Of a DNA stretch of 64,000 nt, positions 17,751-63,390 are shown piece after piece. The translations under genes and the position numbers were made by a program. Origin of the DNA: Eledone cirrhosa. Taxonomy: Eukaryota. The DNA lies in NCBI GenBank assembly GCA_964016885.1, contig OZ024747.1, forward strand, positions 48,050,001 through 48,114,000, given 5' to 3'. The notes beneath the pieces are model-generated. The model saw only the letters and a list, made by a program, of their open reading frames with translations. It was not told the DNA's origin and made no database searches. The number at the start of each line of letters is the position of its first letter. The first letter of the stretch is position 1.

Positions 17751-19148
17751 TGCCTACCTGTTGAGTCATTTTTATGCTTGGATATTATTTTAATTTCTAT
17801 GTTGTCTATATTACCGTCATGTCTTTGCCTAGCGTGTTCATATAGTACTGAACCGTTTTTTTGTCCTTTTAGTTCCCCTCCAGTGTTGGTCTATTCTTTC
17901 TCCTAAGCTTCGAGCTGTCTCACCTATGTATGTCATTGTCATGTTTCTGCAAGTACCCTCTGTACATCTTATGCTATAGACTACATTTCTAGTTTTACAA
18001 TTTATCTTTTTACATATAACACATTTCTTATTTGTACAGTGGGTTTTCTTAAAAGGGTGTGTCTTGCTGATCAGGGATTTTATGGTAGTTACTGGCTTTT
18101 CTACCACTTTAATCTTTAGATGGGTTTTTCTTAGGGCCTTTCTACATTGCTTAGCTAATTTCCCTCCAAGGGTAGCATCCACGAACATGACACTCTGGTG
18201 TCTCTGGTTGTCGTACCTTGAAGTGGCTTTGCCTATCTTATGTTTAGTCTTATCTTAGCCATTCCATGATTTGCTCCTGTATAATTCCTTTCATGTCCAT
18301 TTCTATGAGGGTCTTATATTACTCCATGGCTCATTTGTATACTCTGATTCTGTCTTTTTGGTTGTAGCTAGAGTACTACATGCAATCGATGAAGTGTTGG
18401 ATGTGTCTTTCTATTTCAGTTGGGTCACACATGCGGGACACATTCTTCATCACTCTTACCAAGTGCGATCAGAATATTAAACTTAGCACTATTGGACATT
18501 ACTGAGTTTTTGAGTATCAGGTATTTGGAGGCCATGGGTTTAGCATAGTGTGAGTGGAGAATTTGGGCCCTCTCGTCGATAGTACTAATAAACATGAATT
18601 AGAAAATAGCACAATGGAGAGCATCCAGCAGATAGCAAACTCCATACACCAGAGTATAACTGTAACTGTTGACTACCCTTCCAAACACCCTAAAAATAGA
18701 CTACTAGTATTAGACATGGAACTCTGGATAAACACTATAGATGAGAGGGCCCAAAAATGACTCAACAGGTAGGCAAATCAGAGAAGCAACTGAGATAGAA
18801 CTAAGAAGAACATACTTGAACAGAAAGAACGAATGGAATAACAACAACAACCATACCCAAACAATCAATACTGACTTCAAGGAAATATCAATAAATATAT
18901 ACACAAGTACAATAACAACTAAACATATAAACACACACTAGTGAACAAAGAATACAAAAACAAAAACACATACACTCAAACGCGAACACACACAACAAAC
19001 ATTATACACACGCAAACGCGGAGACAGAGACAAGAAGAAATGAATAAATTAAATAAAAATTGCGTAGACATTACAATAGAATGAGAGAAAACATAATAGT
19101 ACCACTGATGATGTTGCAGATGTGTGATGAAAGAACTTTGATAGACTA
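17751..19148. mobile_element. Rearranged Penelope-like element remnant (RT, GIY-YIG endonuclease, 3' hammerhead)
   Basis: 17838..18188(-) gives CKTRNVVYSIRC..C..YIGETARSLGERI (GIY-YIG). About 18545(-) gives HYAKPMAS. 18554..18760(+) gives ITVTVDYPS..LLVLD (RT). 18753-18840(+) gives RQIREATEI..LNRKNEW. Confidence 0.85.
19097..19148 (+). ncRNA. Degenerate minimal hammerhead at the Penelope 3' end
   Basis: TAGTACCA-CTGATGA-T-GTTGCA-GATG-TGTGAT-GAAA-GAAC-TT-TGATAGACTA. Core intact, stems eroded to G-U pairs. Confidence 0.55.
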
Positions 19149-19162
19149 TATATATATATATA

Positions 19163-31255: not shown

Positions 31256-32122
31256 ATGGCCTTAAAAGACTTGTTATCTTTCATATGAAATATGGTAACA
31301 AAAGGGTTAATAATAAAAAAAAACACATTTAACTACTGTTATGTATCAGTCTAAGGTTTGAATTTAACTTTCAACATTTTAATAGAGGCATGTCAGTGTT
31401 TAGAGGGTTAGAGAACCCAAATCGACACCAGTACTTTTAAGCTTGGTTCTTATTTTATTAATTTCTATTTGTCAAACTACTAAGCTACTGGACCTACATA
31501 CACACAAGTATATACACATGGTGGTCTTCTGCAGTTTCTGTTTACCAAATTTTACAAGGCATTGGTCAACTTAAGGCAATACTAGAAGACACTTGTCTAT
31601 GATGCCATGGAGACTGAACCCAAAGCAAACTCCTAAATCAAAAAGCCATGCCTACATTTGTTCAAACCGGCCCTTAAAGCCCAATAACACCCACACTGAA
31701 ATATTGTTCTAAAAATAAACGATACCGTCATAAAAATCTCGTCAATTCGAGATTACTGCGAGATTAGGCCCTTACCATGAAAATTAACACTAAACATTGT
31801 GAAACTACTTAAAATAACACGTGCTTTTTTAACATTGAAAGTAGAACAGATTTTTTGTGTGTATCAAGATGGCTTGTGAAAGTAGTGATACCGACTTTGA
31901 AGGTTTTACACATGACGAGATTCAGAATGAACAAGAAACAAAAGATAATAATAGTGATTTATCCTCAAAGAATCAGACGTTTACATTTCTGAAATTTCAT
32001 TAGACGATGATTGTTATTTTGAAAGTGAAAACGGAGATCTCCAGGACGCCATTGAAGATATTACAGTAACGTGGCCGAAAAATACCACACCTATACATGT
32101 TCCCGATTTTATTGAACATTCT

Positions 32123-34427
32123 GGCATACCCCAGGAAAGAATGTACCCCACAGCATAGGTTAGTCGTTAGTGATATCTCAGTAAGCAAGAGACGGAATGA
32201 GACATACAGGAAGGTGTGGAGAAGAAAGGTCTGGAAGCTAAAAGACCTTTCACTAAAATACAAATTTAGGAAAGTCCTTCAAGATGTGTATGACGAAAAA
32301 GAAGACGATTTAGAGTTGTATGACATAGATGATAACTGGAATTTCTTACGTGACAACTTACTGCAGGCTACTGAAGAAACTTGTGGCTGGAGCAGAGCTC
32401 CAACCAGACAGAGAGTGACCTGGTGGTGGAACAGCACGGTAGATAGGACCATTAGAGACAAAAGACTAGCATGGAATGCTTGGAAAAATGGTGGGAGTAG
32501 AGAAGGATATACAGCCACTAAGAGAGAAGCTAGACATCAGGTGTACTTTGCACGCAGGGAGGCTGAGAGTAGCAGGTTTGCCAATGTTCTGCGAGGAGAA
32601 GATCAGAGACTTGCAGTGTTCCGCATTGCAAGGCAGTGTGTCAGTGCAAATCAGGATGTTGTTGGAGGTAAGTGTGTCCGGAATGGTGCCGGTGTACTTA
32701 CTGTCATGAATGATAAAAAAAAGGAGGTCTGGAAATGTCACTATGAGAGACTGATGAATGTGGAGAACGAATGGGAGAGAGGGAAATTACACCCAGTAGA
32801 CCCGACAGAGGGACCATCTATTGAGATTGATGAATATCGGGTCCAAGAGGCGATTAAGGAAATGAAAAATGGTAAGGCCGCTGGAACGTCAGGGATAGTT
32901 GCTGAGATGCTGAAGGCATCAGGGGACGGACGTAGGCACTAAACTGGTTGCATGCATCATCAATCAGGCTATATATGGTGGTTTCATACCCAAAGACTGG
33001 TGCAGCAGTATTCTTATAAATTGCTACAAAGGTAAAGGGGATGCTCTGGAGAGGAGCAACTATAGGGGCATTAAACTGATGCATCAGGTTATGAAAGTGG
33101 CAGAAAGGATATTAGCACAACTAATTAGAGAAAGGGTCAAACTAGATGAGATGCAGTTTGGTTTTGTGCCTGGGAAAAGTACAACAGATGCCCTCTTCTT
33201 GGTGAGACAATTGCAAGAGAGGTTCTTAGAGAAGAATAAGCCACTATACTTAGCCTTTGTTGACCTAGAGAAGGCCTTTGATAGGGTATCCCGATCTGTC
33301 ATCTGGTGGTCCCTAAGGAAACTAGGTGTTGAGGAATGGCTTTTGAGGACAGTGCAAACTTTGTACAGAGGTGCTGTCGGTAAAGTCAGGTTAGGAACGG
33401 AGTTTAGTGAGGAATTCCAGATACAAGTAGGAGTACATCAGAGTTCGGTCCTCAGCCCACTCTTGTTCATTATAGTCCTCCAAGCCATAACAGAGGAGTT
33501 TAAGACTGGTTGCCCATGGGAACTTCTCTATGCTGACGATCTGGTTCTTATAGCAGAATCAGTAGAGGAGCTGGAGAATAAATTCTGGCTATGGAAACAG
33601 CAGTTGGAATCAAGAGGACTGAGAGTGAACCTAGCTAAGACAAAAGTGTTGATGAGTAGAAAAGAGGACAAAACTCTGATTCCGTCAGGGAAATGGTCAT
33701 GTTCGATATGCAGAAAAGGAACTGGCATAAATTCTATAAAATGTACACAATGCAGATCTTGGGTACACAAGAGATGTAGTGGGATAGCAGGCAAACTAAC
33801 ACGCAGGGAGAAATATGTATGCAGTAGATGTACAGGGAAATTAGACAGTAGAAGTCGCATTGATAGACACATTTTTCAAATGCAGGTGGGTTGATAGCTT
33901 CCGGTACCTAGATGATCAGATTAGCATGGGAGGGGGTGTTCCGAGGCCATAGTATCTAGAATAAGGACAGGTTGGACGAAGTTTAGGGAGCTGCTTCCCC
34001 TGCGTACGAAAGGCCGGTTATATGATGCTTGTGTGAGGTGCGCGATGTTGCATGCTAGTGAGACATGAGCAGCAACTGCAGAGGATATGCAACGGCTGGA
34101 GAGAAATGAGGCAAGCATGCTCCGTTGGATGTGCAATGTCAATGTGCGTCAACGACCGGGCATGGATGTGTTGAGAGAGATAAATTGTAGTGTGCGGGAG
34201 AGGAGACTGCGATGGTATGGACATGTGATATGCATGGAGGATGACCGATGGGTGAAGAAGTGCCAATTGAAGGAAGACGTAGTAGAGGAAGACCACGAAA
34301 AACATGGGCAGAGGTGGTGAGAGCAGACCTCAGAAGCTCACGGTGACAAGTGGGGAGATGCTGTGCTGAATAGGATCCGTCCCACCCTTGCAAGCAGGGA
34401 AAAGCGGACGTAAAATGATGCTGATGA
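32123..34427 (+). mobile_element. 5'-truncated RTE family A LINE inserted in the piggyBac ORF
   Basis: ORFs 32097..32942 and 33079..33894 (RT plus PHD); family A tail; CTGG on both sides. Confidence 0.95.
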
Positions 34428-35726
34428 CTGGTCCTCAACACACATTACCTCCCGATGCTAAAGCACTGGATTATTTTGTGTTGTTTTTGCCACAAACTTT
34501 CTTCGAAGTTGTGGCAAAAGAGACTAATCTATATGCCCAACAACAGATTTCAAATCGATGAAAACCAATCTGTTATGGCGACCAACAGATGCTGCGATGA
34601 TGCAAGCATTTTTTACAATAAATATGTTTGTTATAAAACAATTTCCAAGACTGTGGAATTACTGGAACACTGATATAAGGTTTAGTGACTCTTATATGTC
34701 AAGTATTATGGCAAAAACAAGATATTTAAAATTAAACCATTAATTAAAATGCTATCTGAAAAATTTAAAACAGTATATATACCTGGGAAAAATCTTAGTG
34801 TTGATGAAGCTATGATTGGGTATAAGGGTAGAATACATTTCTGACAATATATGCCAGCTAAACCCACCAAATAGGGCATCAAGGTGTGGGAACTCTGTGA
34901 ATCGGACACAGGCTACTGTGTAAACTTTGATGTTTACACAGAAAAGAAACACAACAGAGAGAGAAAAAATGGATTGGGGTACGATGTTGTGTGGTCTCTG
35001 ACTGAACCCTTCCACTCTCAACACAGACACATATATTTTGACCATTTTTTTTCTTTAGTGCTTCTAGCAGAGGATCTTACCCTCATAAATACGTACACCT
35101 GCGGTACAATAATGGGGAATCGCAAAGAGCTACCCCAAGAAATAAAAGTCACAAAATTTAAAAAGATAGAGGATATTCTCCAAGTGCAAAAAGGGAACAT
35201 GTAAGCCACATTGTACAAAAACAAAAGGCTAATTTTGTTCCTATCTTTTAACCAACATCCAGGAGTTGAGGCTGAAGGTAAACCTTTAGTCAACCATTCC
35301 TATAATAAATATATGGGCGGAGTTGACAAATCCGACCAATATTGTGCGTATTACCCAGTTGGATGCCCTGGAAAGAAATGGTGGAGATATATCTTACGGT
35401 TTTTAGTGAATTTAACCATTGTCAATTCTTTTATTGTATTCACTAAAAGCCACAAGGATCTGCCACCACCAAAGGACTACTGCCACATGAAATTTTGTGT
35501 GGACGTCGCATCTCAGCTACATGGAGGATATACTTCTCGCAAACACAAGGCTGAGAGAAAGTCAAAATTATCTGAGGTGAACAAAGAAAATATTGATTTT
35601 CATAACGTGGAGAAAATTGATGGGAGGAATAAGGTTTGCCGAATATGCTCGTTTATTTGTTCATTTTGCAAAGTGACATTATGTAAAAGCTGTTTTGGCC
35701 AATATCATGATAGAAATATTGTCTGA
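34428..35726 (+). pseudogene. piggyBac (PGBD4-like) transposase pseudogene; N-terminus at about 31868-32124
   Basis: LSVDEAMIGYKGR..QYMPAKPTK*GIKVW, IYFDHFF, YNKYMGGVDKSDQ, and a C-terminal Cys-rich CRIC..CSFCKVTLCKSCF..YH; stops and frameshifts. Confidence 0.9.
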
Positions 35727-39975: not shown

Positions 39976-41259
39976 CATCATCATCATCATCATCATCATT
40001 TTACGTCCGCTTTTCCCTGCTTGCAAGGGTGGGACGGGTCTTATTCAGCACAGCATCTCTCCACTCGTCACGGTCCCTCGTCATCTCCACCGTGAGCTTC
40101 AATGATCTGAGGTCTGTTCTCACCACCTCCGCCCATGTTTTTCGTGGTCTACCTCTACCACGTCTTCCTTCAACTGGCATTTCCTGGCACTTCTTCACCC
40201 ATCGGTCATCCTCCATGCGCATCACATGTCCATACCACCTCAGTCTCCTCTCCCGTACACTACATTCTATCCCTCTCAGACACAGTTTCTCTCTCAACAC
40301 ATTTATGCTGGGTCGTTCACGCACATTTACACTGCACATCCAACGGAGCATGCTTGCCTCATTTCTCTCCAGCCGTCGCATATCTTCTGCGGTAGCTGCC
40401 CATGTCTCACTACCATGCAGCATCGCGCTCCTCACACAGGCATCATACAACCGGCCTTTCGTACGCAGGGAGAAACCCTTCTTCGTCAACAGAGGAAGCA
40501 GCTCCCTAAACTTCTTCCAACCCGTCCTTATTCTAGATACTATGGCCTCGGAACACCCTCCTCCCATGCTAATCTGATCTCCTAGGTACCGGAAGCTATC
40601 CACCACTTCTATAGCGCCCTCTCGCATTTGAAAAATGTGTCTATCAGTGCGACTTCTACTGTCTAATTTCCCTGTACATCTACTGCATACATATTTCTCC
40701 CTACCTGTTAGTTTGCCTGCTATCCCGCTACATCTCTTGTGTACCCAGGACCTACATTGTGTGCATTTTATAGAATTTATGCCAGTTCCTTTTCTGCATA
40801 TCGAACATGGCCATTTCCCTGACGGAATCAGGGTTTTGTCCTCTTTTCTACTCATCAACACTTTTGTCTTAGCTAGATTTACTCTCAGTCCTCTTGCTTC
40901 CAACTGCTGTTTCCATAGCCGGAATTTATTCTCTAGCTCCTCTACTGATTCTGCCATAAGAGCCAGATCGTCAGCATAGAGAAGTTCCCATGGACAGCCA
41001 GTCTTAAACTCCTCTGTTATGGCTTGGAGGACTATAATGAACAAGAGCGGGCTGAGGACCGAACCCTGATGTACTCCTACTTGTATCTGGAATTCCTCAC
41101 TAAACTCCATTCCTACCCTGACTTTACTGAGAGTACCTCTGTACAAAGTTTGCACTGTCCTTACAAGCCATTCCTCAACACCCAGCTTCCTTAGGGACCA
41201 CCAGATGACAGATCGGGGTACCCTATCAAAGGCCTTCTCTAGGTCAACAAAGGCTAAGT
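39975..41259 (-). mobile_element. Young RTE family A LINE, 3' part (RT, PHD, tail)
   Basis: Intact ORF 40001..41155 ending LASREKRT-stop directly before (ATG)n. Confidence 0.96.
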
Positions 41260-43217
41260 CATCATCATCATCATCATCATCACCGTTTTACGTCCGTTCT
41301 TCCACGCTAGCATGGGTTAGACGGGTTGTCCTGTTGTGGGCAGTGTCTGGTCGGCTGACCATGCCTTGCTCATACAGGAACTGATCTGGCTTGATTTCTA
41401 CAGCTGGATGCCCTTCCTAACACCAACCTCATTTACAGTGAGTGCTGGGTGCTTTTTCGTGGCGCCTACACGTCCACTTTACAGTGTGGGCTGGGTGCTT
41501 TTTTGCCGTGGCACCTCCACGACCACCTTGCGGTGGGGGGGGGGGGGGGCATATTGTTTATATGCTTCAGCATGTACCCATGGGAGGTCGGGTACCCTGT
41601 ATTACTGCGTGACGCCAGAAGTCACGGTCGTGTGTCATTGACTTTGAGAGGTGTAGTTGGGTAAGGTCGGCTTTTATCACCTCATCCCAAGTCATCTTGG
41701 GTCTCCCCACTCCGCGGTTTCCATCAACTTCTAGTGCTCTGCACCTTTTTATGCAGCTGTCATCCTTCATACGCATCACATGTCCATACCAGCGTAACCG
41801 CCTCTCCTGCACGCAGCATTTGATTCCTCTTATGCTCAGTCTCTCTCTCAATTCATTTATGCTTTGTCGTTCACGTATATTACTGTTACACATCCATCGG
41901 AGCATGCAGGCTTCGTTTCTCTCTAATCTACGTAAGTCTTCCACCTTCAGCGCCCAGGTCTCACTACCATGCAACATCGCTGTTCGGATACACGCATCAT
42001 ACAGTCTGCCTTTCATTCTGAGGGAGAAGCCTTTTGCAGCTAGCAGTGGTAGTAGTTCCCTAAACTTCTTCCATCCCGTTCTTACCCTAGTTATTGTACT
42101 TTCTGAGCACCCACCTCCGTTGCTAATTCGGTCACCTAGGTAGCAGAAGCTGTCTACTGTTTCTACAGGGCCCTCCCAGAGATTGGTGGTACTTGTTTCC
42201 TGTGGCTGTTTGCTTGCTGTTTCAGCACAGCTGCTGCATGTGAATCCTACATTCTTAATTAAGCTTCCTGAGATCCCGCTACATCTCTTGTGTACCCATT
42301 GTTTGCATTTGGGGCAAAGAATGGAGTTCCTACCTACACCTTTCCTACATACTGAGCAAGGCCATTTCCCTGAGGGGATCTGGGTTCTGTTTTCTCGTCT
42401 ACTTATAAGGACCTTAGTCTTTGTCATGTTGACTTTGAGGCCCTTTCTCTCTAGTCCCTGCTTCCAGGTTTGGAATTTATTCTCTAGTTCTACCATAGAT
42501 TCAGCTATGAGTGCGAGGTCATCAGCATACAGGAGTTCCCATGGGCATCCGGTCTTAAACTCCTCCGTTATTGCCTGCAGGACTATGATGAACAGGAGAG
42601 GGCTAAGAACAGAGCCCTGGTGGACCCCAACCTGTACGCTAAATTCCTCGCTATACTCATTGCCAATCCTAACTTTGCTGACTGCTCCCCTATACATGGC
42701 TTGTACCGCTTTCACAAGCCATTCATCTACTCCTAGTTTTCTAAGAGCCCACCAGATTACTGCACGTGGAACTCTGTCAAAGGCTTTCTCAAGGTCGACA
42801 AATGCCAAGTAGAGTGGCTTACTTTTAGCTAGGTACTTTTCCTGTAATTGCCTCACAAGGAAGAGCGCATCAGTGGTGCCTTTCCCTGGAACAAACCCAA
42901 ATTGCATCTCGTCTATATTCACCCGGTCCCTAATCAGCTGTGCTATAACTCTTTCTGTTACTTTCATGACCTGGTCCATCAACTTTATACCTCTATAGTT
43001 TCCTCTATCTAGTGCATCGCCTTTACCTTTGTAGCAGTTGACAATGATGCTACTGCACCAATCTTTTGGTATGGCCCCCTCTAGTATTACCTGGTTAACG
43101 ATACGTGTGGTTATAGTGTGACCTACAGACCCAGATGCCTTCAGCATCTCGGCAGCTATACCCGATGGACCGGTTGCCTTCCCTATCTTCATATCTCTGA
43201 TTGCCTTACTTACTTAC
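41260..43217 (-). mobile_element. 5'-truncated young RTE family C LINE nested in the family A copy
   Basis: Intact ORF 41567..43192 (541 aa, full RT plus PHD), structured 3' UTR, (GAT)n tail, AGT duplicated at 41257-41259 and 43218-43220. Confidence 0.95.
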
Positions 43218-46563: not shown

Positions 46564-46613
<50 letters not shown>

Positions 46614-46708
46614 TATAATGCTCGGTTTGTTTGTAAACAAACATCCCGAATTAAGCCGTACAGTGTTTAGCAACCATCGTTGCCCTTTTGTTCAACATTG
46701 ACAAAGGA

Positions 46709-46751
46709 ACGATGTACTAGTTTCAAGCTTATTAGCTATCGTCAGCACTGT
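46709..46751 (-). ncRNA. Minimal type I hammerhead ribozyme (family H2)
   Basis: ACAGTG-CTGACGA-T-AGCT-AATA-AGCT-T-GAAA-CTAG-TA-CATCGT; one stem I mismatch. Confidence 0.8.
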
Positions 46752-46798
46752 AGGAAAGTATAATCTTTCAGACGTTCAATCATCTGGCAGGAAGGTAT

Positions 46799-46841
46799 AC
46801 GGTGCTGACGATAGCTAATAAGCTTGAAACTAGTACATCGT
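46799..46841 (+). ncRNA. Minimal type I hammerhead ribozyme (family H2)
   Basis: ACGGTG-CTGACGA(46805-46811)-TAGCTAATAAGCTT-GAAA(46826-46829)-CTAG-TA-CATCGT; palindromic ACTAGT stem III; GUA triplet with predicted cleavage after 46835. Confidence 0.87.
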
Positions 46842-47013
46842 TCCTTTGTCAGTGTTGAACAAAAGGGCAACGATAGTTGCTAAACACTGTACGGCTTAAT
46901 ACGGGATGTTTGTTTACAAACAAACCGAGCATTATTATAAATGTTCGGTGAATCCATATATATATACATACTACTGTACATTTGTATGCATATATGTATG
47001 TATGTACGTATAC

Positions 47014-47289
47014 ATTCTCAGACCGGGTGATGTGTTGTTTGCTTGAGCAAGACTCTTTATTTCACATTGCTCCAGTTTACTCAGCTGTAGAAGACGGGGG
47101 TCCCTATCATTCCACTGCAAAGTGGTCGTGGAGGAGCCACGGCAAAAAAAAAAAATCACCCAGCACTCAGTGTAAATGAGGTTGGTATTAGGAAGGGCAT
47201 CCAGCTGTAGAAATCAAGCCAGAATCAGTTCCCGTCCCACCCTTGCAAGCAGGGAAAAAGGGGACGTAAAATGAAATGAAAGAATGAAT
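47014..47289 (+). mobile_element. SINE family 1 (A tail), 5'-truncated at the B box
   Basis: Aligns with 8885-9148 and 1-196. Confidence 0.85.
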
Positions 47290-48688: not shown

Positions 48689-51600
48689 TGGGTATGACAT
48701 TAAACTACATCCAGTGGCAAGGCTCCAGTTCGGGAGTTCAGGAGATGTGGGGAATGTGGAGTTACCCCTTAGTTGTCATGACTCCCAGGTCTGCCCTGGC
48801 CCGGGGTGGTAGTACCTGTTAGGGCTCCATTTATGGGTTAAATAACTACCTTATTCGAGTGGCGCCGGTAAGGTATTGTCAGCCATTGAAAAGAAATATG
48901 GAGAGTCGATCTAACAGCACTAGGGTTAGAGCCCCTAATTACACTGTCAAGGAGCAGCCTGGTCGTTATGACTCTGCTGGCTTAGAGCCACAGAGAGGGC
49001 CAGTGGATGATGGATCAGCTGTCTCTGAGACAAATATAAAGAATGCAGTTTTGTCCTGCAGAAGAGCCATCAAAATGGGCACTTTGAATGTGAGGACTAT
49101 TCGGACGCTGGAGAAGAGAGAGGAGTTGGGACATCAGTTCGAGGAGAGTGGTATACAGATACTTGCGATCCAAGAACACAGGATTCTACACGATGAGCTC
49201 GTGAGGAGTGTGATGATCGGCAGTGAAGAACACAACAAATGCTGCAGGAGGAGGAGTGGGTTTTGTGTTCAGTGCAAACACCAATCTGTTGGTGAGGGAA
49301 ATAATGCCTATCTCCCCGCGAGTGTTGAGGGTGACTTTCAATGGAAACCCAAGACTGACAGTCATCTCAGCCTATAGTCCAACCGAGGGGGACAGTGATA
49401 TGAATGCGGAAGAGTTCCATGAGGAGGTGTGTAGAGCTGTCAACACCACTCAGGCACACAATATCCTGCTTGTTTTGGGGGACTTCAATGCACATCTGAG
49501 TAAGGAGGGCAGTGAAGATTCTTGCTGGTACTTCCATAACAACACCAACCGAAATGGAAGAGTACTGAGAGACACCCTGCTGGAGGCGAACTTGATGGCG
49601 ACCAACCTAGGGTTTAGGAAGAATCTGGGGAAGATGTGGACCTACATCTCAGATATGCACCTGTCCAAGTCCCAGATTGATTTCATTCTGGTGAGGAAAA
49701 AGTGGCGGAACAGTGTTCTGAACACGGAACCATACAGCTATTTCAGTACACTGGGTAGTGACCACCGGCTTGTTATGAGTGAGGTCCGCGTGAGCTTAAG
49801 AAAGAGCAAGGCTCAGCCCCGGAGAACAATCTATGACTGGGGAGCTTTCAAGGAAGATGATAGGCTACAGGAGAGGTTCACAGTGGAAGTGAGAAACAGG
49901 TTTAGTGCTCTGTGTGGAGAGTCAGAGGAGAGAGAGATTGGATGGACTGAGGAGAGTGTGACGAGGAGGTACGGGCACTTCACCAATGCAGTGGCGGAAG
50001 CAAGTGAAACCCTGGTGCCGAGGAAAAAGAACAAAGGGAAGCACGTCAGCTCTGCAAACCCAAAAGTGTGTGCAGCCAGAGAACACCTGAAAGCTGCCAG
50101 GGATCAATTCTATGCTGATCCTACGGAGGAGAGAATGGAGACTGTGGAGGTGATGAGGGAAGAGCTCTGTACCGCTTACACTGAGGTCAGAGAGGAGGCA
50201 CTGATAGAGAAGATCAGAAGTGTGGAGAGAGCGGTTGACAGATCTGGATGTAAGGAGAGCTGGATGATCATCAACGAGATCACAGGGAGGAAGAGAAGGT
50301 GTTCGAGTCAGATCCAGGGAACGGGGCCCGAGGATAGGAAGAGGAAATGGCTAGACCATTTTAGGACCCTACTAGGAGAGCCACCCTCCACAGCCCAGAG
50401 CACTGGGGAGATCAGGCGGCTGTTTGGGGAACTGGATGTTGAGACAGAGCCCTTCACCAGAGAGGAGCTTCAGAGAGCCAAGAAGAAGATCAAGGAGGGC
50501 AAGGCTCATGGAGAAGATGGAGTGGCATCAGAGGTGATGAAGATGTGTGATTTTGATGATATCATCCTGGGGTTCTGTAACGGGGCACTGGAGAAAGGAG
50601 TTGCCCCGAATCAGTGGAGGATCAGTAACATCGTCCCAGTGCCAAAGAAGGGAGATCTCTCTAACACCAACAACTACCGGGGATCTCACTGACGTCACTT
50701 GTGGCAAAGACCCTCAACAGGATGATTCTTAACAGGATCCAGCCTGAGATGGAGAAGAAGCTCAGGGACAACCAGAACGGCTTCAGAGAGGGTAGATCAA
50801 CCACCAGTCACATCCTGATGCTGAGGAGGATATTAGAGGGAGCTAGAGCAAAGTGCCTTCCTGCGGTCATGGTTTTCATTGACTTTAGGAAGGCCTTTGA
50901 TTCTGTGGACCGTTACTGCCTGATGAAGATCTTACAGGCTTATGGAATCCCCAAGAAGATAGTGGACCTGATATCCCTGCTCTACACCAACACCAAAGCC
51001 CAAGTCATTACACCTGATGGGATGACAGAGTTCTTTGAGATACTGGCTGGCGTGCTCCAGGGAGATACATTGGCTCCCTACCTTTTTATCATCGTAGTGG
51101 ACTATTGTATGCGCCTTGCACTGGATAAACACCAGGACTCTGGCTTTACTGTGGCACCGGCTCAGAGCAGGAGAGTTAGGGCGAAAAAGGTATCGGATGC
51201 TGAATTTGCCGACGACATAGTTTTGGTGACAAATACAGTGAAGGAGGCAGAGGATTTGATGCGGGAGGTTGAGACTGTGTCAATGAGTGTGGGGCTGAGA
51301 ATGAATGAGACTAAAACAAAATATCTGGTAGAGAATGTTGAGAAGCCAGAGGGGATCACTAATGTAGGCGGGAAGCCGCTGGAATTGGTTGAGGACTTCC
51401 TGTATTAGGGAGCAAAGATTGGGAATACGGAAGATGGTGTGGTTGAGAGGAAGAGCAACGAGGCCTGGGCGGCGTGCCACAGCTTCAGATCGGTGTGGAA
51501 GTCGGACCTTCGTAGAGACCTGAAAATCCGCCTCTTCATTGCTGTAGTGGAGTCTGTGCTGCTGTATGGGTCTGAGACTTGGACACTGACCAAGAGACTC

Positions 51601-53661: not shown

Positions 53662-56600
53662 CATCATCATCATCATCATCATCAACGTTTAACGTCCGTG
53701 TTCCACGCTTGCATGGGTTTGGACAGGGGTAGTCCCACTTGAGGCAAGAGTGATTGTCTTGCTCGCATAGGACTGTCTGGCAGGTTTTCTACAGTTGGAT
53801 GCCCTTCCTAACACCAACCACATTTACAGTGTGGGTCTGGGAGGTTTTTACCGTGTTGCCTACACGGCCACATTACAGCGTGGACTGTGTGTTTTTTTGT
53901 CGTGACACCTACACGATCTCATTTGTTTCGGCCTCGATGGCGCGGCACCAACATAACTTTACATAGAACGGGGTGGTGTGGATGGGGTGGGACGGGGTGT
54001 ATTTTGTTAGAGATGCCTACTGGCTGGAGTAGGTTTTACTATATATTTAGGTAAGGCGGGTCTTCTCTGTTACTGAGTACCGCCAAAGGTCTCGGTCCAG
54101 TGACATTGTCTTGGAGAGGTGTAAGTGTGTGATGTCGGAGTTTATCAGCTCGTCCCAGGTTTTTCTAGGTCTGCCTATTCCGTGGCTACCGTCTATCTTT
54201 ATTGCCCTGCACTTTGTTATACAGCTATCGACTTTCATGCGCATCACGTGTCCATACCAACGTAGCCTTCTCTCGAGTAAACAACATCTGATCCCTCTTA
54301 TCTCTAATTTTTTCCTTAGTTCGTTTATGCTTTGCCGTTCACGTATATTACTGTTACACATCCAGCGGAGCATGCAAGCTTCGTTCCTCTCTAGTCTGCG
54401 TATATCCTCTGCACACAATGCCCAGGTCTCACTGCCATGCGGCATTGCTGTTCGTATGCAGGCATCGTACAACCTGCCTTTCATTTTTAGGGAGAACCCT
54501 TTAGCAGCTAATAGTGGTATAAGCTCTCTGAACTTTTTCCAACCAGTTCTGACTCTAGCTACAGTACTTTCAGAGCACCCTGCCCCACTGCTGATTTTAT
54601 CGCCCAGGTAACGGAAGCTGTCCACTATTTCTATAGAACCCTCTGCGCAATTGAAAGAGCTAGTATTTTGTGGGCACTTGCTGCTACTTATTGCACCAGA
54701 GCACCGGCCACATGTAAAATCTATGTTCTTAGTTAGCTTACCTGTGATCCCACTACATCTTTTATGCACCCATACTTTGCATTTAGGACATAAAATGGAG
54801 TTTCTACCTACGCCTTTCCTACACACCGAGCACGACCATTTCCCAGAAGGGACCGCCGCCTTGTTTTCTTTCCTACAAACTAGTACTTTGGTCTTAGCCA
54901 GGTTAATTTTAAGTCCTTTTGACTCTAGGCCGTGCTTCCATGTTTGGAATTTCTTCTCTAGCTCGGCCATTGATTCCGCTATGAGTGTCAGGTCGTCTGC
55001 GTATAGGAGTTCCCATGGGCAGCCTGTCTTGAACTCCTCTGTTATAGCCTGAAGGGCAATAATAAATAGTAGTGGGCTGAGAACAGAGCCCTGATGGACG
55101 CCAACTTTTACGCTAAACTCTTCACTATATTCGTTGTTAATTCTAACCTTGCTGACTGTTTCTTTATACATGGCTTGTATAGCCCTCACAAGCCATTCGT
55201 CAACGCCTAGTTTTCTAAGAGCCCACCAGATAATGGAGCGGGGGACTCTGTCGAAGGCTTTCTCCAAGTCGACAAAAGCTAAGTAGAGGGGTTTACCTTT
55301 AGCTAGGTACTTCTCCTGTAGTTGTCGTACTATGAAAAGAGCGTCTGTGGTACTTTTGCCTGACACAAACCCGAACTGCATTTCATCTAGGTCAATTCTC
55401 TCTCTGATTAGTTGCGCTATTACTTTTTCCGTGATCTTCATGACCTGGTCGATTAATTTAATGCCTCTACAGTTGCTCCTATCTAGGGCGTCTCCTTTAC
55501 CCTTATAACAGTTAACGATGATGCTGCTATGCCAGTCCTTCGGAACAACCCCATTCTGTACGACTTGGTTAACTATGCGGGTGACCATGGTGTGTCCCAC
55601 CGTGCCAGATGCCTTCAGCATCTCAGCAACTATTTCCGAAGGCCCAGCCGCCTTACCCGTCTTCATATCCTTGATTGCCTTACTTATTATACTCCCCTCG
55701 ACTAACAATGCTGGTCCCTCTATTGGGTCGATATGGGGGAGACTGTCTTTCTCCCATTTATTCTCCTCATTTAGTAGCCTTTCATAGTGACACTTCCAAG
55801 CTACCTTCTTATCAGCGTCGGTGATGGCAAGTGTGCCATCGTCGTTTAGTACACACTTCTCCCCGACAATATCACGGTTTTCCTTGACGCATTGCCTAGC
55901 AATCCTGAACACCTCACGTTTTTGGTCATCGCGTTGTAGAACATGCTTGAACTTTCTTTCCTCAGCTTCCCTTCTTGCTAAGTACACTTGTCTCCTAGCT
56001 TCCCTCCTGGCCACTTGATAGTCTTCTCTACTTCCCCCATCCCGCCATACTTTCCAAGCCTGCTTTTTGGCCTTAATTGACCCCTCCACCTTACTGTTCC
56101 ACCACCATGTTACTCTCCTCCTGCCTACAGGCCTGCTCCAGCCACAGACTTCGTCTGTTGCCAACAGCAGGTTTGCTTTCAGAAATTCCCACTCTCCCTC
56201 TATATTGTCCGACTCTAAATGTTCTTCCTTACTGTCGAAAGCATCAAGTAATATGCTTTGAAATTTATTCCTGGCTGTGGGGTCCTTTAGCTTCCATATT
56301 TTTCTCCTGAGGATAGTCCTCTTCTGCTGTCGAGTACGTCTCGTCCTGACTATGAGGTCGCTAATTATCAGTCTATGTTGGGAGGTGCATTCTTCATGGG
56401 GGAGGGATTTAGTGTTTACAACAGACACTCTGTCACGTCTTCTGGTAAGGATATAATCTACCTGGCTTGTGTGTTCCCCGGATCTATAGGTGATCAGGTG
56501 ATTGTCACGTTTTTTGAAGTTAGTGTTACAGATAGTTAGGTTATTTGCATCACAGAATTCCAGGATTCTGGAGCCTTCCTCATTTCTAGTACCAAACCCA

Positions 56601-57177
56601 TAGCCTCCATGGATTTCGTCGTAGCCGTCACAATGTTGTCCAACGTGACCATTTAGGTCGCCTGCGATAATTATATAGTCACTGTCGGATATTTGGGAGG
56701 TAGTTAGCATCAGTGTCTCATAGAATCTGTCTTTTATAGTGCCGGGCAGTCCGGATTGGGGTGCGTACGCAGATATTACTGTCACCGTAGTTCTATTGAG
56801 GACAAGTCGTATTTTAATTATTCTGTCGTTCACTCTATTTACGTCTATTATCTTATCTGCCCACTTTTCTGCTACCATGATTCCTACTCCACCCAGCCCA
56901 TCGTCGTTTCCCACCCAGAAAAGCTTATAACATCGTTTTTTACCCTCAATGAACCTAGCAGACCCACCCCTCCACCTGGTCTCTTGAATACAACAAACAT
57001 CGACCTCCTTACGTTCAAGCATTTCTACAACGTCGTTAGCGCGACCCTTTAGGGTGCCTACATTTATGGTACCAACTCTGAAGTTTTGGATTGCGTTTGG
57101 GGGTTGGGGGTGGTGGGGGGCGATGGGGTTATGTTAGCCGTCCGCGGTCGAAACAATGAGGAGTGCTCGCATTCTCG
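53662..57177 (-). mobile_element. Near-full-length young RTE family B LINE
   Basis: Intact ORF, structured 3' UTR of about 370 bp, (GAT)n tail, TA tracts on both sides. Confidence 0.96.
54047..57022 (-). CDS. RTE-clade ORF: AP endonuclease plus reverse transcriptase with inserted PHD-type finger (991 aa from the first ATG; frame stays open upstream through [11 protein letters not shown])
   Basis: CIQETRW, SAYAPQ, AGDLNGHVG, QVDY; [24 protein letters not shown]; CxxC-x-CxxCxxWVHKRC-x-CxxC; RLRWYGHV. Confidence 0.93.
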   Translation of the reverse strand: MLERKEVDVCCIQETRWRGGSARFIEGKKRCYKLFWVGNDDGLGGVGIMVAEKWADKIIDVNRVNDRIIKIRLVLNRTTVTVISAYAPQSGLPGTIKDRFYETLMLTTSQISDSDYIIIAGDLNGHVGQHCDGYDEIHGGYGFGTRNEEGSRILEFCDANNLTICNTNFKKRDNHLITYRSGEHTSQVDYILTRRRDRVSVVNTKSLPHEECTSQHRLIISDLIVRTRRTRQQKRTILRRKIWKLKDPTARNKFQSILLDAFDSKEEHLESDNIEGEWEFLKANLLLATDEVCGWSRPVGRRRVTWWWNSKVEGSIKAKKQAWKVWRDGGSREDYQVARREARRQVYLARREAEERKFKHVLQRDDQKREVFRIARQCVKENRDIVGEKCVLNDDGTLAITDADKKVAWKCHYERLLNEENKWEKDSLPHIDPIEGPALLVEGSIISKAIKDMKTGKAAGPSEIVAEMLKASGTVGHTMVTRIVNQVVQNGVVPKDWHSSIIVNCYKGKGDALDRSNCRGIKLIDQVMKITEKVIAQLIRERIDLDEMQFGFVSGKSTTDALFIVRQLQEKYLAKGKPLYLAFVDLEKAFDRVPRSIIWWALRKLGVDEWLVRAIQAMYKETVSKVRINNEYSEEFSVKVGVHQGSVLSPLLFIIALQAITEEFKTGCPWELLYADDLTLIAESMAELEKKFQTWKHGLESKGLKINLAKTKVLVCRKENKAAVPSGKWSCSVCRKGVGRNSILCPKCKVWVHKRCSGITGKLTKNIDFTCGRCSGAISSSKCPQNTSSFNCAEGSIEIVDSFRYLGDKISSGAGCSESTVARVRTGWKKFRELIPLLAAKGFSLKMKGRLYDACIRTAMPHGSETWALCAEDIRRLERNEACMLRWMCNSNIRERQSINELRKKLEIRGIRCCLLERRLRWYGHVMRMKVDSCITKCRAIKIDGSHGIGRPRKTWDELINSDITHLHLSKTMSLDRDLWRYSVTEKTRLT

Positions 57178-57188
57178 TATATATATAC

Positions 57189-57225
<37 letters not shown>

Positions 57226-57477
57226 CATACATATATATACATATATATATATATATACATACATTGTATATATATGTATATATGTATGTGTATATATATA
57301 TATGTTTGTATATATATGTATATATGCATGTGTATAAATATATGTTTGTATACATATATGTATATATGTATATGTATATATATTATATATATGTTTGTAT
57401 ATATATGTATATATGTATATGTATATATGTTTGTATATATATATTATATATATGTTTGTGTACAATATTGTACAATA

Positions 57478-59876
57478 TTGCAGTGGAGAAAACTCTACTC
57501 TCTGATCATGACATGGTTCTCTGTGATCTGAGATTCCACCGTCCAATATACAAACCCAATGTCATTTCTCCTGTCCATCCGTTTGACGCTATGGATTTCC
57601 ACAATGCAAACTGGGAAGCGATCAGTCATGATCTTGCACATGTCGACTGGTCCTTCACGCACACTCATACACCCACTAACATCAAAAAGTCCTGGCAGAC
57701 ATTTGTGGACACTGTTACAAACATATGTGCTAAACACACCCCATTAAGAACTATAAACAAATCTAAGAGCAGAATCCCTAGAAATAGAAAAACACTCATC
57801 AGAAAAATTAAGAGAACGAACAAAAAAATCAACAAGCTGAAATACTGTCAGCAGCAACACATCAACTTGACTGCCATTTCATCACTAGAGATTAAAAAAC
57901 ATAACCTCCAAAACAACATAATGTCCCTCATCAACAATCAGAGAAGAGCTGAAGAGGCCTGGGCCATTGAGAAGATCAAACTCAATCCCAAAGTGTTCTT
58001 TTCATTTGCAAAAAAACACAAAATCACTGGCTCTACTGTTGGCCCTCTAATTGATGAAAATGGCACTCTTCAAGACAATGCTAAAACCATGGGTGAGATA
58101 CTGCAGAAACAATACTGCTCTGTTTTCAGCAATCCTGATATGGCCGATCTGGGCTGTATCGGCGATGTTACTCCCCATTACACCTTATCGGACATAACGT
58201 TTGGCGCCCCTGATGTCTTGGCGGCAATAAAGGAAATCAAGCATAATTCAGCAGTAGGTCCCGATAGGTTCCCTGCTTGTGTCTTGAAGGCGTGTCAACA
58301 CCAACTTGCTTCTCCTCTTGCCAATCTGTGGCGGAACTCACTGGATGCTGGATATGTGCCAGAAAACCTTCTATCCCAGTCTGTTGTCCCAGTTTTCAAA
58401 AAGGGAAACAAATCCCTTGCCGTGAATTACCGTCCAATCTCACTCACCTCTCATATCATTAAGGTATTTGAGCGAGTGGTGAGATCGCGAATGACCCACT
58501 TCCTTGAGAGTAACAATATGCTGAACTCCAACCAGCATGGATTCCGTAATGGAAGGGATTGCCTGACGCAACTACTGCATCACTTTGATGACATTTTGAG
58601 AGCCTTGGGAGAGGGTTCCAACACTGATGTTATCTACCTTGATTTCAGCAAGGCCTTTGACAGGGTTGATCATAACATTCTACTGAGAAAGCTGTCCAAT
58701 ATTGGTGTCACTGGAAAGCTGCTGCAGTGGATCAAGAGCTTCCTGTCAAACAGAACCCAACATGTTGTAGTTGAGGGAGTCAAATCAAGCCCAGCCAAAG
58801 TCAGTAGTGGAGTCCCACAAGGCACTGTGTTGGGCCCACTTCTCTTCATCATCTATATTAATGACATCACTGACATCATCAAACACAGCAACATTAAAAT
58901 TTTCGCTGATGATTCCAAGCTCCAAAAGGTCATCAATGGCGTGGATGACCGGATAAGCCTTCAGTCAGACCTACTGGCTGTTACCCAATGGGCAGAAAAG
59001 AACAACATGTTACTGAACGAAGACAAATTCGAACTGATCCACTTTGGAAAAGAGGATGCTCTGAAACTCCCGTACTCCCTTCCCTCCGGGGAAACTCTCG
59101 TGGCATCTAACAACATCAGAGACTTGGGAGTAACCGTGGACAGCAACATAAGCTGGACCACGCATATAAGCAGCAAAGTTGACATGGCCCGCAGAATGTG
59201 TTCCTGGATCCTCAGAACCTTCCAGTCGAGAGATTCCCGCACCATTATCCTTCTCTTCTCTACTTTCGCCCGACCACACCTTGAATACTGTTGTCCACTG
59301 TGGTCTCCCCACACGAAACAAAGTATCATGAAACTTGAAGCTCCTCAAAGGGCAATCACGAAAAAGATAGATGGCATGTCAGACCTTGACTACTGGGGTC
59401 GATTGGAAAACCTGTAACTTTACTCACTCCAACGTCGCCGTGAGCGTTATATTATCTGCATGATGTGGAAAATGTTCCATCATCACTGCCCAAATGATGT
59501 TGGCATCGCCTTCAAGATACACCCAAGGCTTGGGCCCCGTGCTATCCGTCCCATTCAAAAATTTAAATCGCAACTCATAACAACAATACGGCACAATTAT
59601 TTCACCTCAATCGGCCCTGCTCTCTTCAACATCACACCAGGACACGTCAAAACAGAAACTGACCACACAAAATTCAAGAAGTCTTTGGACAAATTCCTCC
59701 AAGTAATCCCGGACAAACCACCCACACCCGGATATGTCTCCGCAAACAGTAATTCTCTTCTCGAATGGGCCATGGTGCCCAAATCCTGAATTGAAAGACT
59801 TCGCCAGGTGGTGCTATTAAGTTAGACATGGCCTGGGCCAATACTGGCCAAAACATTTCAAAGTTATTCAAAGTTA
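57478..59876 (+). mobile_element. 5'-truncated CR1/L2-group (Daphne-like) LINE with a single in-frame stop at 59415-59417
   Basis: [59 protein letters not shown]; ORF ends at 59789; tail (TTCAAAGTTA)x2. Confidence 0.9.
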
Positions 59877-60005
59877 TATATATATATACATATATATATA
59901 TACATATATACATATATATATATATACATACGTATATATACATACATATATATATACATACGTATATATACATACATATATATATACATACGTATATATA
60001 CATAC

Positions 60006-60042
<37 letters not shown>

Positions 60043-60078
60043 CATACATACATACATATATATATATACATACATATA

Positions 60079-60116
<38 letters not shown>

Positions 60117-60120
60117 CATA

Positions 60121-61814
60121 CATCATCATCATCAACATCATCAACGTTTAACGTCCGTGTTCCACGCTTGCATGGGTTTGGACGGGGGTAGTCCCACTTG
60201 AGGCAAGAGTGATTGTCTTGCTCGCATAGGACTGTCTGGCAGGTTTTCTACAGTTGGATGCCCTTCCTAACACCAACCACATTTACAGTGTGGGTCTGGG
60301 AGGTTTTTACCGTGTTGCCTACACGGCCACATTACAGCGTGGACTGTGTGTTTTTTTGTCGTGACACCTACACGATCTCATTTGTTTCGGCCTCGATGGC
60401 GCGGCACCAACATAACTTTACATAGAACGGGGTGGTGTGGATCGGGTGGGGGTGGTGGGACGGGGTGTATTTGTTAGAGATGCCTACTGGCTGGAGTAGG
60501 TTTTACTATATATTTAGGTAAGGCGGGTCTTCTCTGTTACTGAGTACCGCCAAAGGTCTCGGTCCAGTGACATTGTCTTGGAGAGGTGTAAGTGTGTGAT
60601 GTCGGAGTTTATCAGCTCGTCCCAGGTTTTTCTAGGTCTGCCTATTCCGTGACTACCGTCTATCTTTATTGCCCTGCACTTTGTTATACAGCTATCGACT
60701 TTCATGCGCATCACGTGTCCATACCAACGTAGCCTTCTCTCGAGTAAACAACATCTGATCCCTCTTATCTCTAATTTATTCCTTAGTTCGTTTATGCTTT
60801 GCCGTTCACGTATATTACTGTTACACATCCAGCGGAGCATGCAAGCTTCGTTCCTCTCTAGTCTGCGTATATCCTCTGCACACAATGCCCAGGTCTCACT
60901 GCCATGCAGCATTGCTGTTCGTATGCAGGCATCGTACAACCTGCCTTTCATTTTTAGTGAGAACCCTTTAGCAGCTAATAGTGGTATAAGCTCTCTGAAC
61001 TTTTTCCAACCAGTTCTGACTCTAGCTACAGTACTTTCAGAGCACCCTCCCCCACTGCTGATTTTATCGCCCAGGTAACGGAAGCTGTCCACTATTTCTA
61101 TAGAACCCTCTGCGCAATTGAAAGAGCTAGTAGTTTGTGGGCACTTGCTGCTACTTATTGCACCAGAGCACCGGCCACATGTAAAATCTATGTTCTTAGT
61201 TAGCCTACCTGTGATCCCACTACATCTTTTATGCACCCATACTTTGCATTTAGGACATAAAATGGAGTTTCTACCTACGCCTTTCCTACACACCGAGCAC
61301 GACCATTTCCCAGAAGGGACCGCCGCCTTGTTTTCTTTCCTACAAACTAGTACTTTGGTCTTAGCCAGGTTAATTTTAAGTCCTTTTGACTCTAGGCCGT
61401 GCTTCCATGTTTGGAATTTCTTCTCTAGCTCGGCCATTGATTCCGCTATGAGTGTCAGGTCGTCTGCGTATAGGAGTTCCCATGGGCAGCCTGTCTTGAA
61501 CTCCTCTGTTATGGCCTGAAGGGCAATAATAAATAGTAGTGGACTGAGAACAGAGCCCTGATGGACGCCGACTTTTACGCTAAACTCTTCACTATATTCG
61601 TTGTTAATTCTAACCTTGCTGACTGTTTCTTTATACATGGCTTGTATAGCCCTCACAAGCCATTCGTCAACGCCTAGTTTTCTAAGAGCCCACCAGATAA
61701 TGGAGCGGGGGACTCTGTCGAAGGCTTTCTCCAAGTCGACAAAAGCTAAGTAGAGGGGTTTACCTTTAGCTAGGTACTTCTCTTGTAGTTGTCGTACTAT
61801 GAAAAGAGCGTCTG

Positions 61815-61815
<1 letters not shown>
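60121..61815 (-). mobile_element. 5'-truncated young RTE family B LINE
   Basis: Open frame TDALFIVRQ...TEKTRLT, 3' UTR and tail. Confidence 0.96.
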
Positions 61816-62835
<1,020 letters not shown>

Positions 62836-63390
62836 AGTCGATAGATGTATAACAAAGTGCAGGGCAATAAAGATAGACGGTAGCCACGGAATAGGCAGAC
62901 CTAGAAAAACATGGGATGAGCTGATAAACTCCGACCTCACACACTTACACCTCCCCAAGACAATGTCACTGGACCGAGACCTTTGGCGGTACTCAGTAAC
63001 AGAGAAGACCCGCCTTGCCAGTAGGCATCTCTAACAAAATACACCCCGTCCCGCCACCACCCCCACCCCATCCACACCACCCCGTTCTATGTAAAGTTAT
63101 GTTGGTGCTGCGCCATCCAGGCCGAAACAAATGAGATCGTGTAGGTGTCACGACAAAAAAACACACAGTCCACGCTGTAATGTGGCCGTGTAGGCAACAC
63201 GGTAAAAACCTCCCAGACCCACACTGTAAATGTGGTTGGTGTTAGGAAGGGCATCCAACTGTAGAAAACCTGCCAGACAGTCCTATGCGAGCAAGACAAT
63301 CACTCTTGCCTCAAGTGGGACTACCCCCGTCCAAACCCATGCAAGCGTGGAACACGGACGTTAAACGTTGATGATGATGATGATGATGAT
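62836..63390 (+). mobile_element. 3' fragment of young RTE family B
   Basis: [12 protein letters not shown]...TEKTRL, with a short deletion across the normal stop; B 3' UTR and tail. Confidence 0.94.

What the first reader, a model, noticed from the sequence alone, without database searches (positions are those of the whole stretch)
46615..46935. A 321-bp fold-back element carrying two outward-facing hammerhead ribozymes
Seen: 138-bp inverted arms around a 45-bp spacer, next to TA runs, with no ORF. Each arm holds a complete minimal type I hammerhead (CUGACGA, GAAA, palindromic ACUAGU stem III, GUA site), one on each strand. Known: minimal hammerheads with palindromic stem III are typical of Penelope-like elements and act as dimers, and Penelope insertions often have inverted terminal repeats. 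Inference: this is a tiny non-autonomous, strand-symmetric ribozyme element. A transcript from either strand contains one ribozyme preceded by its own antisense copy, so self-cleavage would compete with a long duplex that could be an ADAR or Dicer substrate. That could act as a built-in switch, or this could be the minimal product of hairpin-primed Penelope replication.
Basis: partly seen in the sequence, partly recalled or inferred. Interest (0 to 1): 0.82.

Follow-up and report, generated by a model that had tools for sequence, protein, structure and literature searches.

The report
Head-to-head Penelope tail-end insertion
The fold-back with a hammerhead ribozyme motif on each strand is real, but it is made of two shortened copies of a very common repeat joined head to head, likely the ordinary dead-end by-product of a Penelope-type jumping gene rather than a self-propagating ribozyme switch.

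Summary
The palindrome and both minimal type I hammerhead motifs are real. The arms are 145 bp (46608-46752, 46798-46942; 5 mismatches), and the right copy carries an extra 16-nt tail. Reads show that spacer + arm + tail is the end of a high-copy family. At the inner junction most molecules continue into one other upstream sequence, not the fold-back (RAD run: depth 129 beside 7,851), so this palindrome is not the family's unit. Other features match published Penelope-like insertions: head-to-head 5'-truncated copies, a tail on one side only, a palindrome at the junction, TA-repeat flanks. Hammerhead pairs on opposite strands were reported in 2014, and siRNAs from Penelope inverted repeats are also known. 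The family's stem I appears to covary, so the ribozyme likely matters to the family. In this copy it is predicted to be locked in the duplex (54-65 kcal/mol), and the minus-strand copy has a broken stem I, so there is no switch. A link to a Penelope ORF could not be tested. The scan noted the same arrangement twice before on other genomes. Ordinary.

The parts
46608..46752 (-). Left copy: inverted, more strongly 5'-truncated copy of the family's 3' end (145 bp), without the tail
   Evidence: family match
46753..46797 (+). 'Spacer': the upstream part of the right copy, shared by the family; most family molecules continue upstream of 46752 into another common sequence
   Evidence: tables 2 and 7
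46754..46769 (.). 16-bp palindrome with a TATA-like centre at the inversion junction; perfect in the family, two mismatched pairs in this copy (46763, 46764)
   Evidence: table 3 (about 99% of X21 reads carry the palindromic letters)
46798..46942 (+). Right arm (145 bp) of the longer copy
46799..46841 (+). Minimal type I hammerhead motif: 6-bp stem I, U-U plus 4-bp stem II, 2-bp palindromic stem III, GUA site; predicted cut 46835/46836
46709..46751 (-). Second hammerhead motif; stem I broken at the 4th pair (46749, CpG-type change)
46907..46949 (+). Two predicted stem-loops near the 3' end (46907-46922, AC-rich; 46924-46949); the left copy ends at the mirror of 46942, inside the second one
46943..46958 (+). 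Tail present on the right copy only; it is family sequence, which runs about 5 letters further and then into TA-rich repeats
   Evidence: tables 2 and 7 (6,237 loose ends behind 46958 in X21; 7 X1 contigs carry the tail where the left arm stops)
46569..46607 (.). (TA)n flank, likely the insertion target
46956..46966 (.). (TA)n at the right end, overlapping the end of the tail

Best explanation
This is two 5'-shortened copies of the 3' end of a high-copy hammerhead-bearing repeat, joined head to head in a TA microsatellite, and it is likely a single dead-on-arrival insertion of an endonuclease-positive Penelope-like retroelement. Shown: anatomy, family membership, one-sided tail, junction palindrome, rarity of this junction among reads. 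Inferred mechanism (about 60:40 over snap-back priming): the element's protein nicks both strands of AT-rich DNA and primes two cDNAs from the family's two start sites. One starts in the tail and stops at the 16-bp palindrome (46753); the other starts in the terminal stem-loop and stops at 46798. They are joined with only 1 nt of shared sequence. The hammerhead likely serves the parent element, cleaving as a dimer or with protein help. Here it is a passenger: any read-through RNA is predicted to form a 145-bp duplex that buries it, and both arms have since picked up private mutations.
For: (4 runs laid): 8,346 contigs (X1), 149 (X4), 71,716 reads (X21) and 559 contigs (X5, another species) lie on the 441-bp stretch; part of these belong to the simple-repeat flank. 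X21 depth is 129 at 46735-46749 against 7,851 at 46750-46764. Loose ends before 46752 agree on one upstream sequence in 4 of 4 runs (5,325 reads; 40, 2 and 2 contigs). Family sequence continues to 46958 on the right only. The family's 16-bp palindrome sits at the junction. Stem I pair 46802/46838 varies G-U, U-G, A-U, with matching frequencies in X21 (5,830 of 10,916 and 6,265 of 12,616; 400 of 7,242 and 308 of 7,752) and X4 (227 of 1,608 and 200 of 1,566). None of the 12 core positions is among the 40 variant rows shown. Published anatomy: an inverted 5'-truncated copy plus a 30-40-bp tail at one end, with microsatellite bias hiding TSDs (PMC8557442); head-to-head inverted pLTRs with junction palindromes and an optional tail (PMC3846280); dual minimal hammerheads about 100-700 bp apart on opposite strands (PMC4209133); both DNA strands cut and extended, two RT start sites defining the tail (PMC11167929). 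Forcing the hammerhead stems costs 54-65 kcal/mol in fold-back RNA but 0.8 kcal/mol without the antisense arm.
Against: No Penelope ORF has been linked to this family: no genome is held, only 30 letters of upstream sequence were visible, and collection scans found no copy. The tail is about 16-21 nt, shorter than the usual 30-40. Stem II lacks the G10.1-C11.1 pair and the extra base typical of metazoan PLE hammerheads; U-U is a known natural variant. No TSD is discernible. No start codon continues into an open frame in this copy. Stem I frequencies match less well in X1 (53% and 40%) and X5 (60% and 25%), are unphased, and 93 variant rows were not shown. RAD and PCR libraries may under-represent hairpin molecules, and no listed contig spans the junction, so the 1.6% figure is soft.
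Confidence: 0.75

Rival explanations
1. A single truncated copy inserted first, and the left arm arose later by a local DNA template switch (inverted duplication during replication or repair beside the TA tract).
For: The arms share the same allele at the family-polymorphic sites listed; the left copy starts at the centre of a 6-bp palindrome (46795-46800); TA tracts are unstable (general knowledge).
Against: The left copy ends inside the terminal stem-loop, short of the tail, as Penelope inverted copies do, and does not copy the tail or the flank. The arrangement is common in Penelope-like elements across animals.
Confidence: 0.1
2. One reading: a small strand-symmetric non-autonomous ribozyme element that is copied as a palindromic unit, with cleavage and duplex formation in competition.
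For: Clean symmetry; some X21 reads do lie on the left-arm bin next to the junction (depth 129); hairpin molecules may be lost in library preparation.
Against: Depth there is about 1.6% of the neighbouring spacer bin; thousands of reads leave the junction into another sequence; the ends are asymmetric (tail); the apparent 9-bp TSD is an illusion caused by one private change at 46936; the minus ribozyme is damaged; the duplex is predicted to win by more than 50 kcal/mol.
Confidence: 0.06
3. The family is another hammerhead-bearing non-autonomous retroelement (dispersed retrozyme or SINE-like), not the pLTR of an autonomous Penelope, though probably moved by Penelope proteins.
For: No ORF start is visible; the family is very abundant; animal retrozymes are proposed to be non-autonomous Penelope derivatives (bioRxiv 2026.07.22.740005).
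Against: Non-LTR retrozymes are tandem repeats. Here the 3' end runs into TA repeats, and none of the 15 joints shown loops back to the upstream part (68 not shown).
Confidence: 0.06
4. Assembly artefact (fold-back chimeric read).
For: No listed contig piece spans the junction (24 pieces shown, 9,113 not).
Against: The arms differ at 5 of 145 sites; at least three of these are rare alleles private to one arm or the other (46698 left; 46875 and 46936 right). The two flanks differ, and the ends fall at Penelope-like positions.
Confidence: 0.03

Closest known systems
Insertion units of canonical endonuclease-positive Penelope-like elements (Penelope/Poseidon, Neptune): pLTR with adjacent inverted 5'-truncated copy and one-sided tail (PMC8557442 Fig. 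2 legend; PMC3846280)
   Same: Head-to-head inverted copies of unequal length, tail on one side, palindrome with TATA-like centre at the junction, AT-rich or microsatellite target, hammerhead within the repeat
   Different: Both copies are so short that no ORF is present; tail about 16-21 nt; no TSD visible; parent element not identified
Dual minimal hammerheads on opposite strands in Schistosoma mansoni, linked to truncated PLEs (PMC4209133)
   Same: Two minimal type I motifs close together on opposite strands
   Different: Cores here are 60 nt apart, against about 100-700 bp; stem II is short with U10.1-U11.1; stem III has the 2-nt palindromic insert described for D. virilis, rotifer, shrimp and mosquito PLEs
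PAc (Poseidon of Anolis carolinensis), studied in vitro (PMC11167929)
   Same: Hammerhead followed about 70-120 nt later by an AC-rich stem-loop region and a tail; AT-rich target
   Different: In PAc the ORF starts at stem II; no such open frame is seen here; no activity tested here
Rearranged Penelope copies with inverted repeats that yield siRNAs in Drosophila (PMC3681739)
   Same: Inverted repeat able to form long dsRNA
   Different: No RNA evidence for this locus
Non-LTR retrozymes (PMC7229834; bioRxiv 2026.07.22.740005)
   Same: Type I hammerhead, non-coding, high copy
   Different: Those are direct tandem repeats giving circular RNAs; this is an inverted pair ending in TA repeats

Membership tests
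Type I hammerhead ribozyme (minimal, dimer type) | Core C3-U4-G5-A6-N7-G8-A9, G12-A13-A14, A15.1-U16.1, H17 | tested here: met
   Both strands; no core position among the 40 variant rows shown, 93 not shown
Type I hammerhead ribozyme (minimal, dimer type) | Stem I closing the cleavage site | tested here: met
   6 bp on the plus strand with apparent G-U/U-G/A-U covariation; only 3 contiguous bp on the minus strand
Type I hammerhead ribozyme (minimal, dimer type) | Stem II opened by G10.1-C11.1 | tested here: not met
   U10.1-U11.1 then 4 bp; a natural variant reported in PMC3088659
Type I hammerhead ribozyme (minimal, dimer type) | Short palindromic stem III allowing dimer formation | tested here: met
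   ACUAGU is self-complementary; predicted duplex -6.8 kcal/mol
Type I hammerhead ribozyme (minimal, dimer type) | Self-cleavage at H17 | not testable with these tools
   Needs an in vitro assay; no listed holder was on record as RNA
Type I hammerhead ribozyme (minimal, dimer type) | Match to an Rfam hammerhead model | tested here: not met
Endonuclease-positive Penelope-like element | Parent ORF with telomerase-like RT and GIY-YIG endonuclease | not testable with these tools
   No genome; no family copy in collections; no meaningful match of the element to three PLE proteins, best E 0.073
Endonuclease-positive Penelope-like element | Hammerhead within the terminal repeat | tested here: met
   Motif lies about 120 nt from the family's 3' end
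Endonuclease-positive Penelope-like element | 5' truncation with adjacent head-to-head inverted copy | tested here: met
   Family continues upstream of 46752 in 4 of 4 runs
Endonuclease-positive Penelope-like element | Optional 30-40-nt tail at one end | tested here: inconclusive
   One-sided extension present but about 16-21 nt; end blurred by TA repeats
Endonuclease-positive Penelope-like element | Target-site duplication of 7-10 bp, or microsatellite target | tested here: inconclusive
   TA repeats at both ends; the apparent 9-bp TSD was rejected; no empty site seen
MITE / foldback DNA transposon | Palindromic unit recurring with the same ends and internal spacer | tested here: not met
   Junction rare among reads; ends asymmetric
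MITE / foldback DNA transposon | Fixed-length TSD | tested here: not met
   The 9-mer repeat depends on a private change at 46936 and lies inside family sequence
Non-LTR retrozyme | Direct tandem units each with a hammerhead | tested here: not met
   Inverted pair here; 3' end runs into TA repeats; no loop-back joint among 15 shown, 68 hidden

The most novel reading that the evidence does not exclude
A minority lineage of this family has become a palindromic, strand-symmetric mini-retroposon that is re-copied as a unit by Penelope proteins from either strand, seeding long hairpins that feed ADAR or Dicer and silence the parent family. The reads bound this junction to a small share of molecules but do not show that it is unique, and hairpins may be lost from the libraries.
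Probability: 0.06. Interest if true: 0.6.

Novelty: new member of a known kind. Interest (0 to 1): 0.17.

Why it matters
As it stands, little: one more truncated inverted Penelope-type insertion. The modest value is as raw material. How Penelope elements make their head-to-head copies is unresolved (self-priming is proposed in PMC3846280; two-strand cutting and two start sites are shown in PMC11167929). A high-copy family with a one-sided tail lets junction and end positions be counted over many loci to separate those models. The U-U stem II variant with a covarying stem I is also a candidate for a cleavage assay. If the palindrome did spread as a unit, it would be a new minimal retroposon and a built-in source of silencing RNA.

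Tried and rejected
1) 9-bp TSD (46610-46618 / 46932-46940), suggesting a MULE or foldback-type element. Rejected: the family has A at 46936 (650,800 of 652,106 summed depth in X1; 606 of 627 and 7,014 of 7,299 reads in X21) and family sequence continues to 46958. 2) Rfam: 0 hits at the gathering score; the 23 matches at E<=10 are generic hairpin models, none a hammerhead. 3) Other copies in the window: none by blastn; the upstream family motif had 0 matches with up to 3 mismatches. 4) Collections: 0 matches in metagenome contigs and genome contigs. The 20 viral matches to a loose pattern are chance: 0 of 20 pass the descriptor with stem I of 4 bp or more, and blastn hits cover only the pattern. 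5) Scans for Penelope ORF loci with alignment A1: 0 confirmed of 122 and 0 of 62 candidate stretches. 6) Expression: no RNA holder listed; this is no evidence either way. X4 is of unrecorded kind and was not treated as RNA. 7) The one opposite-strand joint shown (46663/46890) lies 3 nt off the mirror position and is read as a small indel placed across the two arms, not a second fold-back. 8) Host identity: 1,266 relatives of a window LINE protein gave no useful name in the 120 rows listed. 9) Lunse et al. (PMC5785218) is not held; known only as cited in PMC6765202. 10) No whole genome is held, so the genome-wide count could not be done. 11) Scan look-ups by sequence, genome and relatives gave nothing relevant.

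Full report
Observation. The inverted repeat is as described: 138-bp arms with 4 mismatches around 45 nt, extendable to 145 bp with 5 mismatches, 46608-46752 and 46798-46942. It folds at -247.5 kcal/mol, z -34, and 0 of 100 shuffles fold as well. Each strand has a minimal type I hammerhead motif. On the plus strand (46799-46841) stem I has 6 pairs, stem II is U-U plus 4 pairs, stem III is the self-complementary ACUAGU, and the site is GUA with a predicted cut at 46835/46836. The minus copy has an A-C mismatch at the fourth pair of stem I, from a CpG-type change at 46749. These were the only two hits of my descriptor in the window; 0 of 100 simulated windows gave a hit with a 6-bp stem I. Rfam has no hammerhead hit. 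U10.1-U11.1 departs from the usual G-C but is a reported natural variant (PMC3088659, passages).

Context. The window is rich in TA microsatellites and in LINE fragments with RT, AP-type endonuclease and PHD domains. No convincing host gene appeared among 137 further frames scanned. The host is evidently an animal. That it looks cephalopod-like and that the LINEs are RTE-type is my recall, not a tool result (one search gave no useful names). No genome is held, so family evidence comes from one laying of four public runs on 46600-47040: X1, X4 and X21 of one species label, X5 of another. X1 may be the assembly's own sample.

The spacer is not a spacer. All four runs cover spacer, arm and the bases right of the arm (8,346, 149, 71,716 and 559 records laid, some on the simple-repeat flank; summed depth is no copy number). 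In the raw-read run X21, depth is 129 on the left-arm bin beside the junction and 7,851 on the first spacer bin. Loose ends before 46752 agree on one upstream sequence in 4 of 4 runs (5,325 reads in X21; 40, 2 and 2 contigs), and a second subfamily diverges at 46772 (3,957 reads). The right half is therefore a 5'-truncated family copy cut at 46753, and the left arm is a second copy cut at 46798 and inverted. Caveats: RAD samples only part of the genome, hairpin molecules may amplify badly, reads inside the arms can be placed on either arm, no listed contig spans the junction, and only 15 of 83 joints were shown, so other fold-back junctions were not visible.

The ends. I first read a 9-bp TSD. 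It is an illusion: the family has A at 46936 (606 of 627 and 7,014 of 7,299 X21 reads), and family sequence continues to 46958, where 6,237 loose ends lead on through about five more letters into TA repeats. Seven X1 contigs carry this tail where the left arm stops. The insert thus has a 16-21-nt tail on the right only, and the left copy ends inside a predicted terminal stem-loop (46924-46949). Both ends abut (TA)n. At the inner junction the family has a perfect 16-bp palindrome with a TATA-like centre (46754-46769; about 99% of X21 reads carry the palindromic letters at 46763-46764), damaged in this copy. At least three of the five arm differences are rare alleles confined to one arm (46698, 46875, 46936), which fits decay after insertion and argues against a chimeric read.

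The ribozyme. At family level the motif looks selected. Of 40 variant rows shown (93 hidden), those inside the motif fall on N7, loop II and one stem I pair, and none on the 12 core positions. That pair (46802/46838) takes G-U, U-G or A-U. The two changes giving U-G have matching frequencies in both read classes of X21 (53% and 50%; 5.5% and 4%) and in X4 (14% and 13%), less so in X1 (53% and 40%) and X5 (60% and 25%); they are not phased. In this copy, forcing stems I and II costs 0.8 kcal/mol in a plus RNA without the antisense arm, 6-10 for the minus copy, 62-65 in the full fold-back, and 54 in a nascent plus RNA ending just past the motif. The antisense arm is transcribed first on either strand, and each strand has only one motif, of a type that did not cleave as a monomer in PMC4209133. 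A real competition between cleavage and duplex is therefore unlikely. This is prediction, not assay.

Mechanism. I favour one Penelope-like insertion event (0.75). PMC11167929 (parts 1-2 of 4 read) shows a PLE protein cutting and extending both strands of AT-rich DNA, starting at two sites in an AC-rich stem-loop that define the tail, without homology to the target; its hammerhead needs the protein. Two cDNAs, one from each strand and start site, joined at their truncated ends would give this head-to-head pair with a one-sided tail (my inference). The alternative is self-priming, proposed from junction palindromes in PMC3846280 (passages and Discussion). The palindrome here fits that, but a simple snap-back at it would copy from 46770, not 46798, and would be expected to include the tail; only 1 nt is shared at the junction. 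I put these at about 60:40.

What is known. PMC8557442 (12 of 18 passages) and PMC8969392 (passages) describe inverted 5'-truncated copies and one-sided tails as routine for PLEs. PMC4209133 (parts 1-2 of 4) reports dual minimal hammerheads about 100-700 bp apart on opposite strands and relates single motifs to truncated PLEs. PMC3681739 (passages) reports siRNAs matching Penelope inverted regions. PMC6765202 (passages) reviews dimer cleavage. PMC7229834 (passages) and bioRxiv 2026.07.22.740005 (part 1 of 5) define retrozymes as tandem units. PMC6962438 (passages) counts 235 hammerhead loci in giant squid. Six completed literature searches listed no paper on a palindromic Penelope-derived unit spreading as such, judged from listings and abstracts; subscription papers and Repbase were not searched, and I opened no supplements, where this family may already be catalogued. 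Two earlier scan notes on other genomes reached the same reading; they are leads, not evidence.

Limits. Membership in the Penelope-like elements rests on anatomy: the parent ORF was not found. A different, decayed Penelope-like element with a GIY-YIG domain and its own inversion lies at 17750-19150. It shows that such elements and such rearrangements occur in this genome, but it shares no DNA similarity with this family.

Verdict. Observation confirmed; interpretation partly supported; a new member of a known kind; interest 0.17.

Noticed in passing
window 17750-19150: A second, unrelated, decayed Penelope-like insertion: GIY-YIG piece at 17841-18254 (-) with a cysteine linker (Pfam E 1.4e-4; 37-48% identical to three PLE-like proteins), itself rearranged. 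A 23-bp overlap (17751-17773 inverted at 18753-18775), a further inverted protein-matching piece at 18560-18745, and a hammerhead core at about 19105-19135 beside (TA)n suggest a twin-priming-like inversion.
   Followed up: partly
window 46754-46769: The family's 16-bp palindrome has a TATA-like centre readable both ways, as described for rotifer pLTRs; it could be a two-way promoter in intact copies.
   Followed up: no
window 46772 and 46864: A second subfamily diverges upstream of 46772 (3,957 X21 reads) and downstream of 46864 (9,775 X21 reads) but keeps the hammerhead region in between.
   Followed up: no
window 46620-46640 and 46905-46925: The AC-rich stem-loop varies among family copies by 4-letter units added on either side (table 4).
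   Followed up: no
window 34528-35723: piggyBac-like transposase fragments (DDE_Tnp_1_7, best E 7.6e-19).
   Followed up: no
window 32070-33891, 40004-43213, 49217-51405, 54050-63030: Several LINE copies; most of those scanned have a PHD finger right after the RT domain, and one frame is open for 1,027 aa (54050-57130, -), suggesting recent activity.
   Followed up: partly
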